Shown: positions 34,913 through 37,812 of the stretch, in pieces
Position numbering within the stretch: position 1 is the first letter of the stretch
Layout of the letters: every line of letters starts with the position of its first letter
From: a virus
Taxonomy: Duplodnaviria > Heunggongvirae > Uroviricota > Caudoviricetes
DNA: 37,812 bases
IMG/VR virus record: IMGVR_UViG_2778261419_000004
Coordinates: 1-37,812 of that record
Strand: one strand, 5' to 3'
Translations under genes and position numbers: made by a program
The notes under the pieces: generated by a model
What the model saw: only the letters and a program-made list of their open reading frames with translations
What the model was told of the DNA's origin: nothing
Databases searched by the model: none

Positions 34913-35401
34913 TTATCTAAAACAAGCAAACTCGCCATGATATTTTTCCCTGAATGCAATAGACATTAATTCGGCCAGCTCAATATCATCGGTATACCCA
35001 AGGCAAATAGACTTACCTTTTAGTTTGAACATAACTTTATATGTGTTTTTCCCTTTAAGAAGATGAACTCCTTTTATACCTGTATTGGATGATGAAACGC
35101 TGTTGGTTTTATTCTGACCTCTGGTTACTTCTCTTAGGTTTGAAATTCTATTGTCATTTTTAACCCCGTTAATATGGTCAATTAACCCTTTAGGCCAGCA
35201 TCCTTTCATATAAAACCAAGCAAGTCGGTGGCAAAGATACGATTTTCCATTAATCCGTATTGATAAGTAGTCGGCCTGTGAGTTCGTCTTAAATCCAGCA
35301 ACCTTTCCGATACTGGAGCTACCAGAAGCTATCTTCCAAGTGAAGACGCCTGTTTCTGGGTTGTAGTTGAGTGAAGAGGTTAATTCTTTATGAGTAATCA
35401 T
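34913..35401 (-). CDS. HNH homing endonuclease with AP2 domain (paralog of 10535..11122)
   Basis: 162 aa from the second ATG; HNH LIDHINGVKNDNRISNLREVTRGQN; AP2-like GIKGVHLLKGKNTYKVMFKLKGKSICLGYTDD; opposite strand to flanking genes; AT-rich. Confidence 0.75.
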   Translation of the reverse strand: MITHKELTSSLNYNPETGVFTWKIASGSSSIGKVAGFKTNSQADYLSIRINGKSYLCHRLAWFYMKGCWPKGLIDHINGVKNDNRISNLREVTRGQNKTNSVSSSNTGIKGVHLLKGKNTYKVMFKLKGKSICLGYTDDIELAELMSIAFREKYHGEFACFR

Positions 35402-35427
35402 ATTCATTCCTTAAATAGAGATTCACT

Positions 35428-37812
35428 ATGTCAAATATTGTGCCAAATGTTATAATTTCAATGCCAAGTCAACTATTTACGTTAGCCAGAAAATTCCAGG
35501 CCGCAAGCAATGGCAAGATATTCATTGGTAAGATAGATTCCGATCCTACGCTCCCACAGAATCAAGTGCAGGTTTATGTGGAGAACGAAGACGGATCTCA
35601 CGTTCCTGTTTCGCAACCAATCATTATTAACGCTGCTGGATATCCGGTATATAACGGACAGATTGCCAAATTCGTTACCGTGCAAGGCCATTCTATGGCT
35701 GTTTATGATGCGTATGGTTCTCAGCAGTTCTATTTTCCGAATGTGCTGAAGTATGATCCATCATCAAAGTTTCCCTACCTTGATATAAACTTATTAAATC
35801 TTTGGGATAAATACAGTAAACTTCCTGGATATAATTTAATTGGATATTTCAAACCAGGAGTAACAATAAATAACCCATGCGATGTTGTATTGCATCTTGG
35901 TAGCGCAACCGTTTATAGATATACGGCAACCATACCGCACACCATAACCAGCGATGAAGAGCCATCAGGATTTTGGCTGCCAGTAAAAGAAGGCATTGAA
36001 GCAGCATCTTCTGCTGATATGACGAGGCTGATATCAGATGGGCATTACATCATTGAGAAAAATGCTGATTTCCTAATTCCAGGGCTAATACCTGGTTCAT
36101 ATAACAGATCTGATAGAAGTTTTTCTGATGGTTATGAGTTCCGATATGGAGGAATAAAGCATCAAAAACAACCATTTGGTGTTTTTGAAAATGCATGTGT
36201 TTTAACGGCTGTGGCTGCGACTCGTGATGCTGAGCATTTTACCGGCATTCTAGGCGCCGAAACCGGTCAATCGCTGGCCCAATACGGCAGTACAGATACT
36301 GCTGCTACATATTTTGAAAATACTGCATTACCGCCATTGTACACGCTAACTGGAGCTATTTTTAGCACAACAGGAGCATCTAGTATTACCATTGATCCGG
36401 CTAAGGTCAGGATAAATATGACCGCGGTGGTTATAGGATCTTCGAAAACATGGTTTGGTCTTATTAGGGGGTTTAATTCGTCAAGCATCACCGTTGATGG
36501 ATGGTATGAAAAAACGTCAGGAACTCAGAGCACTCCATCAGGAACACTTTATATCTCTCCTGTATATCGTGTATGGGGGAATAATACTGTTGTAACAGTT
36601 CCTGAAGATGCAGCTGCAACGTCTGCAGTTGGTATGGAGGTGATGCTTAACCTATATAAAGACGGAACAGGTTCTGATAGTCAGGTTTATAAAGCTATCA
36701 ACAACAATGCATTTAATCCTGATGAGATAGTTGATAGCGCATACCAGGCTGTAGGTAAGTTTGGCAAAGCACATGATGTTTGGCCTGGTTCAACATATTC
36801 ATATCGCTCATGGGGTGCTACATCATATGGGTTCTTCTCAGACCACGATCAGTCCGGTATCAAAATTCTAACCCCCAACGCTGCGGCATTTGTGCTGGCG
36901 TCACAGGTTGATGGTGTTGGAGAGGAAACCAACGTACTTATCATTGACCCTGCCGGTAGCATCACACAAACAAACCGAAAGGGGGTGAACGAAATCGCCG
37001 CACAGTTTGGTCCCAATGGAGCAGCTGGGGTCGTCATACGGCAACAAGCCTCAGGAGGTGCGAACGCATCAGACGCTGTTATGTTCGTAGGAAAGTCATC
37101 AGCAACGGACAGGAGCATAAACTGCGCTGGCACAGTTAATTCTTCCGGAGCTGATTACGCTGAATATTTCTACAAATCAGAAGGCTGTGGAGACATTAAG
37201 CCAGGCGATATATGCGGAATTGACGCGGACGGGAATATCACTGACAGATATGACAGTGCAGTTAGCTTCATGGTAAAAAGTACCAACCCATGTCTTGTTG
37301 GCGGTGACACATGGCTACAAAGCGAGCGCCCAGAATACCCATCGCAAGAATGGGCAGAATGGGAAAAGAAACTCAGAAAACAAAAACCCGTGAAACCTGA
37401 ATATTCTATGGTCTCGGCTATGATTCGGTCAGGGATGTCACAGGAAGAGGCAGAGTCAGTTTATGCTGAATACTTCCGAAGCTATGAAGCCGAACTTGTA
37501 TCGTGGAATTCAGAGCAGGAGTGGGCCAGAAATAATGAGCCAGACATGGAGAGTGCTGAATACAAACAATGGATAGCATCCTCAGAAGAGGAGAGGAAGA
37601 AAGTTGACCGCTTAGCCTTTTGTGGTCGCGTTCCTGTTAATGTCATCGGCGGAAATCCAGGCGAGTATCTTATACCACAGAGAGATTCTAATGGTGGCAT
37701 AAGCGGGGTGTACATATCAGAACCATCATTTATAGATTATCGTAAAGCCGTAGGGAGGGTAGTATCAGTAAATGAATCAAAGGAAGTAACCATCACTGTA
37801 CTTGTACATTAA
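35428..37812 (+). CDS. Tailspike (P22 gp9-like head-binding N-terminus, divergent receptor-binding body, C-terminal chaperone-like domain)
   Basis: 794 aa ending at the window edge with TAA. N-terminal ~110 aa (GKIDSDPTLPQNQVQVYVENEDGSHV...VTVQGHSMAVYDAYGSQ) resembles the P22 tailspike head-binding domain; the rest is unrelated to the P22 body as recalled. Confidence 0.8.
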   Translation: MSNIVPNVIISMPSQLFTLARKFQAASNGKIFIGKIDSDPTLPQNQVQVYVENEDGSHVPVSQPIIINAAGYPVYNGQIAKFVTVQGHSMAVYDAYGSQQFYFPNVLKYDPSSKFPYLDINLLNLWDKYSKLPGYNLIGYFKPGVTINNPCDVVLHLGSATVYRYTATIPHTITSDEEPSGFWLPVKEGIEAASSADMTRLISDGHYIIEKNADFLIPGLIPGSYNRSDRSFSDGYEFRYGGIKHQKQPFGVFENACVLTAVAATRDAEHFTGILGAETGQSLAQYGSTDTAATYFENTALPPLYTLTGAIFSTTGASSITIDPAKVRINMTAVVIGSSKTWFGLIRGFNSSSITVDGWYEKTSGTQSTPSGTLYISPVYRVWGNNTVVTVPEDAAATSAVGMEVMLNLYKDGTGSDSQVYKAINNNAFNPDEIVDSAYQAVGKFGKAHDVWPGSTYSYRSWGATSYGFFSDHDQSGIKILTPNAAAFVLASQVDGVGEETNVLIIDPAGSITQTNRKGVNEIAAQFGPNGAAGVVIRQQASGGANASDAVMFVGKSSATDRSINCAGTVNSSGADYAEYFYKSEGCGDIKPGDICGIDADGNITDRYDSAVSFMVKSTNPCLVGGDTWLQSERPEYPSQEWAEWEKKLRKQKPVKPEYSMVSAMIRSGMSQEEAESVYAEYFRSYEAELVSWNSEQEWARNNEPDMESAEYKQWIASSEEERKKVDRLAFCGRVPVNVIGGNPGEYLIPQRDSNGGISGVYISEPSFIDYRKAVGRVVSVNESKEVTITVLVH

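What the first reader, a model, noticed from the sequence alone, without database searches (positions are those of the whole stretch)
35428..37812. Tailspike with a novel receptor-binding body and a possible C-terminal intramolecular-chaperone domain
Only the first ~110 residues resemble the P22 tailspike head-binding domain. The remaining ~680 residues are unrelated to the P22 endorhamnosidase body as I recall it, and the last ~150 residues are charged and Trp-rich, reminiscent of the self-cleaving chaperone domains found on some phage tail fibres and endosialidases. This implies a different host receptor and possibly autoproteolytic maturation.
Basis: inference. Interest (0 to 1): 0.45.

Follow-up and report, generated by a model that had tools for sequence, protein, structure and literature searches.

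The report
Tailspike with phi29-type self-cleaving chaperone domain

Summary
The 794-aa ORF at 35428..37812 (+) is real. Only residues 1-112 match the P22 head-binding domain. P22, Sf6 and other solved tailspikes stop aligning at about residue 113-130.

No Pfam or NCBIfam model detects this domain. It defines a family of at least 550 protein clusters. The "charged, Trp-rich" stretch is a variable helical insertion (632-722).

The body core (about 232-512) belongs to a depolymerase family that includes PDB 24qj.

Near-identical genes lie in prophages of O148:H28 ETEC, so O148 O-antigen is the likely receptor (inference). Cleavage has not been shown experimentally.

Verdict: new variant of a known kind, moderate interest.

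The parts
35428..37812 (+). Tailspike gene, 794 aa (86.4 kDa precursor), last gene of the window
   Evidence: ORF listing and translation. Full-length match to phrog_34132. Near-identical prophage genes in E. coli TW10573, 503440 and 503829: 775/794 aa identical to TW10573, the other two 99.1% DNA identity.
35428..35763 (+). Head-binding (particle-attachment) domain, aa 1-112
   Evidence: Pfam PF09008, E 8e-64, profile positions 1-112/113. Aligns to Sf6 gp14 and the P22 gp9 N-terminal domains in the PDB.
35764..36027 (+). Neck/linker module, aa 113-200, which co-varies with the type of N-terminal anchor
   Evidence: 95-100% identical in homologues that carry Head_binding, but only 36-47% in the closer homologues that carry Tail_spike_N (PF18668). 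AF2 predicts a helix at 117-131 followed by short strands, pLDDT 57-85.
36028..37152 (+). Receptor-binding / probable depolymerase body, aa 201-575; the conserved core is about aa 232-512
   Evidence: Profile search finds 334 representatives at E<=1e-3, all matching profile positions ~120-400. PDB 24qj Solidus gp83 depolymerase matches at E 2e-12. Relatives are tail spike/fibre PHROGs. In relatives P0178 and P0180 the first ~50 positions of PF12708 (pectate-lyase-like) lie just upstream of the matched core. The fold itself is not established: AF2 pLDDT is below 50 for most of the body.
36295..36297 (+). Asp290, invariant acidic residue of the body family (candidate catalytic carboxylate, inferred)
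   Evidence: Invariant in the 50-sequence alignment of distant body relatives. Aligned to Asp in 24qj. Coordinates checked.
36637..36639 (+). Glu404, invariant acidic residue of the body family (candidate catalytic carboxylate, inferred)
   Evidence: Invariant in the 50-sequence alignment. Aligned to Glu in 24qj. Coordinates checked.
37111..37170 (+). Junction motif R562-S-I-N-C-A-G-T-V-N-S-S-G-A575 | D576-Y-A-E579-Y-F; the predicted autocleavage site lies between A575 and D576
   Evidence: R562, G568, G574, D576, A578, E579 and Y580 are invariant in 132/132 family members. hhalign aligns it in register with phi29 gp12 S691|D692-F-A-E695-Y-F-E. AF2 confidence rises steeply at about residue 576: the ten-residue block 571-580 averages pLDDT 86 after 62 for the preceding block, and the <50 segment of the full-length model ends at 575.
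37153..37320 (+). C-terminal chaperone domain, first beta part (aa 576-631)
37321..37593 (+). Variable helical insertion (aa 632-722), acidic/charged and Trp-rich
   Evidence: 35% charged, 5 Trp. Predicted helices at 640-649, 660-667, 672-702 and 710-723. Absent from relatives P0018, P0019 and P0030, and of variable length elsewhere. Only 29-44% identical in most close homologues whose bodies are 70-98% identical.
37594..37809 (+). C-terminal chaperone domain, second beta part (aa 723-794), ending at the protein's C-terminus
   Evidence: pLDDT 95-98. The motif VDRIAFCGQVPVN aligns with EWxVVGLLGQxxV of true G2 domains. None of the 132 relatives extends beyond this end.

Best explanation
The gene encodes the tailspike of a P22-like temperate phage, built from three exchangeable modules. 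(1) Residues 1-112 dock the trimer on the tail hub, as in P22 and Sf6 (shown by homology). (2) Residues ~113-575 form the neck and a receptor-binding, probably polysaccharide-cleaving body. The body belongs to a depolymerase family that is unrelated in sequence to the P22 endorhamnosidase. D290 and E404 are invariant candidate catalytic carboxylates. The likely substrate is the E. coli O148 O-antigen (inferred). (3) Residues 576-794 are an intramolecular chaperone of the phi29 gp12 (MEROPS G2) type. Three copies would associate, nucleate and register the trimerisation of the body upstream. The chain would then cut itself between A575 and D576, using the invariant D576/E579 pair. That would release a 24.8-kDa fragment and leave a 61.6-kDa mature spike on the virion. 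Homology of the domain, and conservation and register of the motif, are shown here. Chaperone action, cleavage, the exact cleavage bond and the receptor are inferred from the phi29 gp12 and Cobetia phage Dpo31 precedents.
- Sequence: hhalign of the 132-sequence family profile against 13 true G2 domains gives probability 95.8-97.0%, E 8e-9 to 2e-10, over 168-177 columns, with DYAEY on D[YF]AEYFE. A family member, P0030, scores 24.1 bits (E 2.8e-5) on PF11962 across the motif region.
- Conservation: D576, A578, E579 and Y580 are invariant in 132/132. The domain is always terminal, with 126-246 aa from the Asp to the end, against 163 in phi29.
- The domain is 30-58% identical in its beta parts between proteins whose bodies are unrelated (<=25% identity) and that come from gut, marine and soil samples. 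That is expected of a folding module and not of a receptor-binding tip.
- Precedent: Dpo31 of Cobetia podovirus Carin-1 has a gp12-like D4 domain that begins at Asp664 and is lost on expression (PMC13317679). The phi29 and K1F C-terminal domains are cleaved after folding (PMC3357383).
- Hosts: near-identical genes lie in ETEC 503440 and 503829, and a 75%-identical one in B7A. All three are O148:H28.
Against: - The protein itself gives no Pfam PF11962 or NCBIfam hit even at E<=10.
- HMM-versus-sequence searches of the PDB do not retrieve gp12. A family HMM scores only 1.5 bits on gp12.
- The residue before the Asp is Ala/Thr/Leu here, where phi29 has Ser.
- The models are monomers, although the real unit is a trimer.
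- No proteomic or biochemical evidence of cleavage exists for any member of this sub-family.
- The body fold and enzymatic activity are unverified (AF2 pLDDT <50).
- The serotype of TW10573, and the origin of the window itself, are unknown to me.
Confidence: 0.7

Rival explanations
1. The C-terminal domain is a Peptidase S74 (endosialidase / T5 pb1 type) intramolecular chaperone that cleaves at a Ser with a Ser-Lys dyad.
For: S74 chaperones do occur on a P22-like phage: CUS-3, annotated with an endosialidase tailspike, shares the head-binding region. Nine of 50 distant relatives of this body carry PF13884 at their C-termini. So this body family does use S74 domains in other proteins.
Confidence: 0.03
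2. The domain is homologous to the gp12 autochaperone but is not released. It would stay on the mature spike as a distal trimerisation cap or accessory binding domain. The helical insertion (632-722) would then have a function of its own.
For: The sub-family has diverged beyond Pfam detection and has acquired a ~90-residue helical insertion that phi29 lacks. P22's own C-terminal domain acts as an uncleaved auto-chaperone (PMC3357383). The fold also resembles capsid decoration proteins, which are stable structural parts. No cleavage data exist.
Against: Complete invariance of D576 and E579 in 132/132 sequences, within a 20-residue junction motif that is the most conserved part of the family, is hard to explain without catalysis. 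The domain is conserved across unrelated bodies and habitats. The length from Asp to the C-terminus is similar to that of the released gp12 fragment.
Confidence: 0.2
3. The body (201-575) only binds its receptor and has no enzymatic activity, or it is an esterase or lyase rather than a glycoside hydrolase.
For: No catalytic family model matches the body. The AF2 model is poor. The only evidence for catalysis is the depositor's name for 24qj (a depolymerase) and two invariant acidic residues.
Against: D290 and E404 are invariant across 50 relatives at 18-30% identity. The family includes a protein deposited as a tailspike depolymerase. P22-like tailspikes characterised so far (P22, Sf6, HK620) are O-antigen endoglycosidases (my own knowledge).
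Confidence: 0.25

Closest known systems
Bacillus phage phi29 gp12 pre-neck appendage autochaperone domain (MEROPS G2, Pfam PF11962; PDB 3suc, 3gqh)
   Different: About 15-18% identity. It is not detected by PF11962 or NCBIfam. Ala, not Ser, precedes the Asp. The upstream strand is two residues shorter. A ~90-residue charged helical insertion replaces the gp12 beta-rich loop region. The host phage is a Gram-negative P22-like podovirus. ATP dependence was not assessed.
Dpo31 D4 domain of Cobetia marina podovirus Carin-1 (PMC13317679)
   Same: It is the tailspike of a phage of a Gram-negative host, with a gp12-type C-terminal auto-chaperone that starts at an Asp and is lost during expression. It shows that this mechanism is not confined to phages of Gram-positive bacteria.
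P22 gp9 / Sf6 gp14 / HK620 tailspikes
   Same: The N-terminal head-binding domain (PF09008), the gene position after the immI (arc/ant) region at the end of the late operon, and the overall role as an O-antigen-directed spike.
   Different: The body is unrelated in sequence beyond residue ~113-130. In P22 the C-terminal domain is retained and not cleaved (PMC3357383). Here a detachable chaperone domain is predicted.
CUS-3 / K1F endosialidase tailspikes with an S74 chaperone
   Same: A P22-like (CUS-3) or podoviral spike in which a C-terminal intramolecular chaperone is released by autoproteolysis. This is the same logic of assembly.
   Different: A different, non-homologous chaperone family: a Ser-Lys peptidase with an elongated helical/tentacle fold. 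PF13884 is absent here.
Acinetobacter phage Solidus gp83 tailspike depolymerase (PDB 24qj)
   Same: The body core, residues 268-421, aligns at E 2e-12 and includes the invariant Asp and Glu.
   Different: Only ~155 residues align. The host and capsule type differ. The 486-aa chain shows no match to the C-terminal domain. I found no paper describing it in the library.

Membership tests
Peptidase S74 intramolecular chaperone (PF13884) | Match to the PF13884 profile at the C-terminus | tested here: not met
   No hit for the full protein, for residues 121-794 or for 551-794 at E<=10.
Peptidase S74 intramolecular chaperone (PF13884) | Fold similarity to solved S74 chaperones (K1F endoNF, GA-1, T5 pb1) | tested here: not met
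Peptidase S74 intramolecular chaperone (PF13884) | Catalytic Ser (with Lys) at the cleavage junction | tested here: not met
   The invariant junction residues are D576 and E579. The domain cannot be aligned to S74 profiles, so no Ser/Lys equivalents could be assigned.
Peptidase G2 / phi29 gp12 autochaperone (PF11962) | Match to PF11962 at Pfam's gathering score | tested here: not met
   No hit for this protein. The best relative, P0030, scores 24.1 bits against a cut-off of 25. None of the 120 listed family members carries any C-terminal-domain Pfam annotation (one has PF22671, not examined).
Peptidase G2 / phi29 gp12 autochaperone (PF11962) | Homology to true G2 domains over the whole domain | tested here: met
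   hhalign of the family profile against a 13-sequence G2 alignment: probability 95.8-97.0%, E 8e-9 to 2e-10, 168-177 columns.
Peptidase G2 / phi29 gp12 autochaperone (PF11962) | Fold of the released gp12 C-terminal fragment | tested here: met
Peptidase G2 / phi29 gp12 autochaperone (PF11962) | Asp and Glu of the D-x-x-E cleavage motif, with the Asp as first residue of the released fragment | tested here: met
   D576-Y-A-E579 aligns with gp12 D692-F-A-E695 and is invariant in 132/132. That these two are the catalytic residues of gp12 is from my memory of Xiang et al. 2009 and MEROPS. The paper was not held.
Peptidase G2 / phi29 gp12 autochaperone (PF11962) | Location at the extreme C-terminus of a trimeric spike or fibre protein | tested here: met
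   No extension beyond the domain in 132/132 relatives. The upstream partners are tail spike/fibre proteins.
Peptidase G2 / phi29 gp12 autochaperone (PF11962) | Actual autoproteolysis and requirement for trimer folding | not testable with these tools
   Needs expression, SDS-PAGE/MS and mutants.
Peptidase G2 / phi29 gp12 autochaperone (PF11962) | ATP binding that promotes release of the fragment | not tested
   I did not have the gp12 ATP-site residue list, and no ligand modelling was done.
P22-like tailspike (Head_binding, PF09008) | N-terminal head-binding domain, and gene position after the ejection proteins and the immI region | tested here: met
   PF09008 at E 8e-64. Upstream genes are DNA-transfer proteins, an Arc-like protein and Ant. 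The window is 93-96% identical to P22-like coliphages over its aligned structural genes, which cover 39-49% of the 25-kb query.
P22 endorhamnosidase body | Sequence similarity to P22 gp9 residues ~125-666 | tested here: not met
   Full-length P22 chains (2xc1, 8tvr) align only to residues 1-113.
Solidus gp83-like depolymerase body family | Significant similarity over the conserved core, with the invariant Asp and Glu | tested here: met
   E 2e-12 to 24qj. 334 representatives. D290 and E404 invariant. The fold and activity of this member are not established.

The most novel reading that the evidence does not exclude
The RSINAxGTxNASGA|DYAEY domain is a distinct, previously undescribed class of C-terminal maturation module. 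It would be derived from the G2 fold, but its helical insertion would give it an extra role. For example, it could act as a transient cap that keeps the depolymerase inactive or the spike unable to assemble until cleavage, or it could be released without ATP. On this reading it would be the most widespread unannotated fibre or spike chaperone in environmental phages (at least 550 clusters).
Probability: 0.15. Interest if true: 0.6.

Novelty: new variant of a known kind. Interest (0 to 1): 0.4.

Why it matters
Practical points:
- Annotation pipelines label this protein only as "head-binding domain-containing" and miss its last 219 residues.
- If those residues are a detachable chaperone, the mature spike ends at A575. 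Constructs for structure work, depolymerase production or engineered host-range swaps must either keep the domain during expression or expect it to be lost.

General points:
- The result adds a divergent, widespread branch to the phi29-type autochaperones. It has at least 550 protein clusters, mostly in environmental metagenomes.
- The same body family pairs with either S74 or G2-like chaperones, so chaperone modules appear to be swapped independently of receptor-binding bodies.
- It points to a candidate O148-specific depolymerase in prophages of a major ETEC lineage. That could be useful for typing or as an anti-virulence reagent.

Tried and rejected
- S74 hypothesis: Pfam scans of the whole protein and of the C-terminal 244 and 674 residues at E<=10 found nothing. 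NCBIfam found nothing.
- Direct sequence links to gp12 failed. phmmer and profile hmmsearch against the PDB did not retrieve it. BLASTP gave only the 12-residue motif. The family HMM scored 1.5 bits on gp12. Only profile-profile and structure comparison made the link.
- The first full-length AF2 model (30-sequence alignment) was poor (mean pLDDT 55.6). Its Foldseek search returned only head-binding hits and 24qj, with meaningless TM-scores. No fold assignment for the body is therefore made.
- Megablast and tblastn against the phage collection found no phage with this body. They found only Vibrio and Aeromonas phage proteins that share the C-terminal domain.
- Literature searches for the motif strings and for Peptidase_G2/PF11962 found nothing on this sub-family. 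The phi29 gp12 structure paper (PMC2692858) is not held.
- A Pfam scan of ten long body relatives, meant to place PF12708 relative to the core, was only partly informative. Two of the ten showed the first 50 PF12708 positions just upstream of the core.

Full report
**Observation.** The ORF at 35428..37812 (+) starts with ATG, encodes 794 aa, and ends with its stop codon on the last base of the window. Pfam finds only Head_binding (PF09008) on residues 1-112 (E 8e-64). In a search of all PDB sequences, the Sf6 and P22 tailspikes align only to residues 1-113/130, although their full chains of 620-667 aa were available.

The composition claim needs correcting. The charged, Trp-rich stretch is residues 632-722 (35% D/E/K/R; 5 of the 13 Trp). 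Residues 723-794 have no Trp.

**Context.** The window is a P22-like phage. Its aligned structural genes, covering 39-49% of the 25-kb query, are 93-96% identical to those of coliphages HZ41, APC_JM3.2, IME10 and BASEL Bas106. The upstream genes are DNA-transfer/ejection proteins, an Arc-like regulator and the antirepressor Ant.

No phage in the 50,697-record collection carries this body. Three complete E. coli genomes carry the gene at 99.1-99.8% DNA identity from nucleotide 142 onward: TW10573, 503440 and 503829. The TW10573 product is 775/794 aa identical. In TW10573 the gene lies in a prophage next to an acyltransferase gene, intS and tRNA-Arg. ETEC B7A carries a 75%-identical homologue at the same position. 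Strains 503440, 503829 and B7A are all O148:H28, lineage L8 (supplement of PMC6446980).

**The C-terminal domain.** Thirty homologues were aligned. They show an invariant block, R562-S...G568-T...G574-A-D576-Y-A-E579-Y. Downstream of it lie two conserved beta-rich parts separated by a segment of variable length.

A profile of the C-terminal segments retrieved 550 proteins at E<=1e-3. Of the 120 listed, 119 carry no Pfam annotation and one carries PF22671, which I did not examine. Most come from environmental metagenomes and are 170-430 aa long. One relative, P0030, reaches 24.1 bits on PF11962 Peptidase_G2 across the motif, just below the 25-bit cut-off.

In a 132-sequence alignment, D576, A578, E579 and Y580 are invariant in all 132. 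The domain always ends the protein. The distance from the Asp to the C-terminus is 126-246 aa.

**Structure.** The full-length AF2 model was poor overall but confident from residue 576 onward. A second model, of residues 531-794 with the deep alignment, has mean pLDDT 87.8. Its confidence rises from 62 in the ten-residue block 561-570 to 86 in block 571-580 and 97 in the next.
- Foldseek against 350,542 PDB chains ranks 3suc, pre-mature phi29 gp12, first (E 0.027, prob 0.89, 251 columns).
- No S74 chaperone structure appears among the rows listed by either search.

**Profile-profile test.** I collected 13 true G2 domains by tblastn with gp12 681-854. They come from phi29, Nf, SPR, 280BB001, a Clostridium phage, four Staphylococcus-type phages, Cobetia phage Carin-5, a Lachnospiraceae phage and two cyanophages. 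I compared them with the family profile using hhalign. The result was probability 97.0% (global, E 2e-10) and 95.8% (local, E 8e-9) over 177 and 168 columns. The alignment pairs GADYAEY with aDyAEyFE, and VDRIAFxGQVPVN with EWxxVGliGQixV.

So three independent lines identify residues 576-794 as a divergent homologue of the phi29-type autochaperone: the fold, the profile-profile match, and the invariant motif in register. By contrast, single-sequence and HMM-versus-sequence searches do not see the relationship. Pfam and NCBIfam do not cover it either.

**Mechanism.** For phi29 gp12 and K1F endoNF, the C-terminal domains are needed for trimer folding and are cleaved off afterwards (PMC3357383; PMC4690869). 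A gp12-type domain in the tailspike of a phage of a Gram-negative host, Dpo31 D4 of Cobetia phage Carin-1, starts at Asp664. It was systematically lost from expressed protein and was needed for solubility (PMC13317679).

By analogy, I infer that this precursor (86.4 kDa) trimerises through residues 576-794 and cleaves between A575 and D576. That would leave a 61.6-kDa spike and a 24.8-kDa fragment.

Two observations fit a folding module better than a receptor-binding tip. The domain's beta parts are 30-58% identical between proteins with unrelated bodies. The junction is the most conserved part of the family. Cleavage itself is not shown. A retained, non-cleaving domain remains a real alternative (about 0.2).

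**The helical insertion.** Residues 632-722 are predicted as four helices. The segment is absent from P0018, P0019 and P0030, and its length varies elsewhere. It is only 29-44% identical in most homologues whose bodies are 70-98% identical. Its role is unknown.

**The body.** Residues 268-421 match the tailspike depolymerase gp83 of Acinetobacter phage Solidus (PDB 24qj, released 2026-03-25) at E 2e-12.

A seven-sequence body profile, searched against 1.84 billion representatives, found 334 proteins at E<=1e-3 and 175 at <=1e-10. All matched the core, residues ~232-512. In 50 of them, G251, D290, W383 and E404 are invariant. These relatives are tail spike or tail fibre PHROGs.

The relatives carry many different N-terminal anchors: Head_binding, Tail_spike_N, T7 tail fibre N, and tail-collar. 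They also carry different C-terminal modules. Nine have Peptidase_S74 and one has a Phage_depo_C beta-sandwich. In P0178 and P0180 the first ~50 positions of PF12708 (pectate-lyase-like) lie just upstream of the core.

I therefore regard the body as a probable beta-helical depolymerase with D290 and E404 as candidate catalytic residues. The fold is not established here, because AF2 pLDDT is below 50 over most of it.

**Modularity.**
- Residues 113-200 co-vary with the anchor type.
- The body plus chaperone (69-89% identical in P0002-P0006, 63-64% in P0007/P0008) also occurs behind a Tail_spike_N anchor. One such case is a 73-kb contig with SU10-like portal and adaptor genes. Another is a 47.6-kb contig with tape-measure and NlpC/P60 genes.

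**Receptor.** All typed carriers are O148:H28 ETEC, and P22-like spikes normally target the O-antigen. The O148 O-antigen is therefore the likely receptor. It is related to the O-antigen of Shigella dysenteriae type 1 (Feng et al. 2007, cited in PMC7685785). This is an inference.

**Verdict.** This is a new, unannotated variant of a known mechanism, placed on a P22-like tailspike. Interest is moderate.

Noticed in passing
window 34913-35407 (-): A 164-aa HNH endonuclease ORF (phrog_99, E 4e-60) sits between the antirepressor gene and the tailspike gene and ends 20 bp from the tailspike ATG. The TW10573 and B7A prophages have no annotated gene at this position.
   Followed up: partly
window 35428-35570: There is a sharp mosaic junction inside the head-binding domain. 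The first ~141 nt of the gene are only ~62% identical to the TW10573 copy, and identity is >=98% afterwards. Sixteen of the 19 amino-acid differences fall in residues 2-47. Other E. coli prophages match nt 1-339 at 94-96%. The junction lies next to the HNH endonuclease gene, which may reflect homing-associated co-conversion.
   Followed up: partly
L001 8333-9343 (-), TW10573 prophage, just downstream of the tailspike gene: An acyltransferase-family gene lies between the tailspike gene and intS. It is absent from the B7A prophage. It could be an O-antigen acetylase for seroconversion or superinfection exclusion. The window ends before this position.
   Followed up: no
   Followed up: no
proteins P0032-P0150: Most members of the C-terminal domain family are short (170-430 aa) proteins from marine and other environmental metagenomes. 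They have glycine-rich, repeat-like N-terminal parts, and the deep profile weakly matched the Bdellovibrio fibre protein Bd2133 (8ond, E 0.046). They look like small fibres whose only conserved part is the chaperone.
   Followed up: no
phage records MG592407.1 2020-2661; PQ495738.1 31377-32051: Vibrio phage 1.023.O and Aeromonas phages PhAER-1 and PhAER-2 encode the same C-terminal domain (38% identity). It is annotated as 'coil containing protein' or not annotated at all.
   Followed up: no
L018 13356-13931 (-): The 47.6-kb contig that carries the Tail_spike_N version of this spike also encodes an HNH_3/AP2 endonuclease a few kb away. This is a second association of this spike family with homing-type endonucleases.
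   Followed up: no
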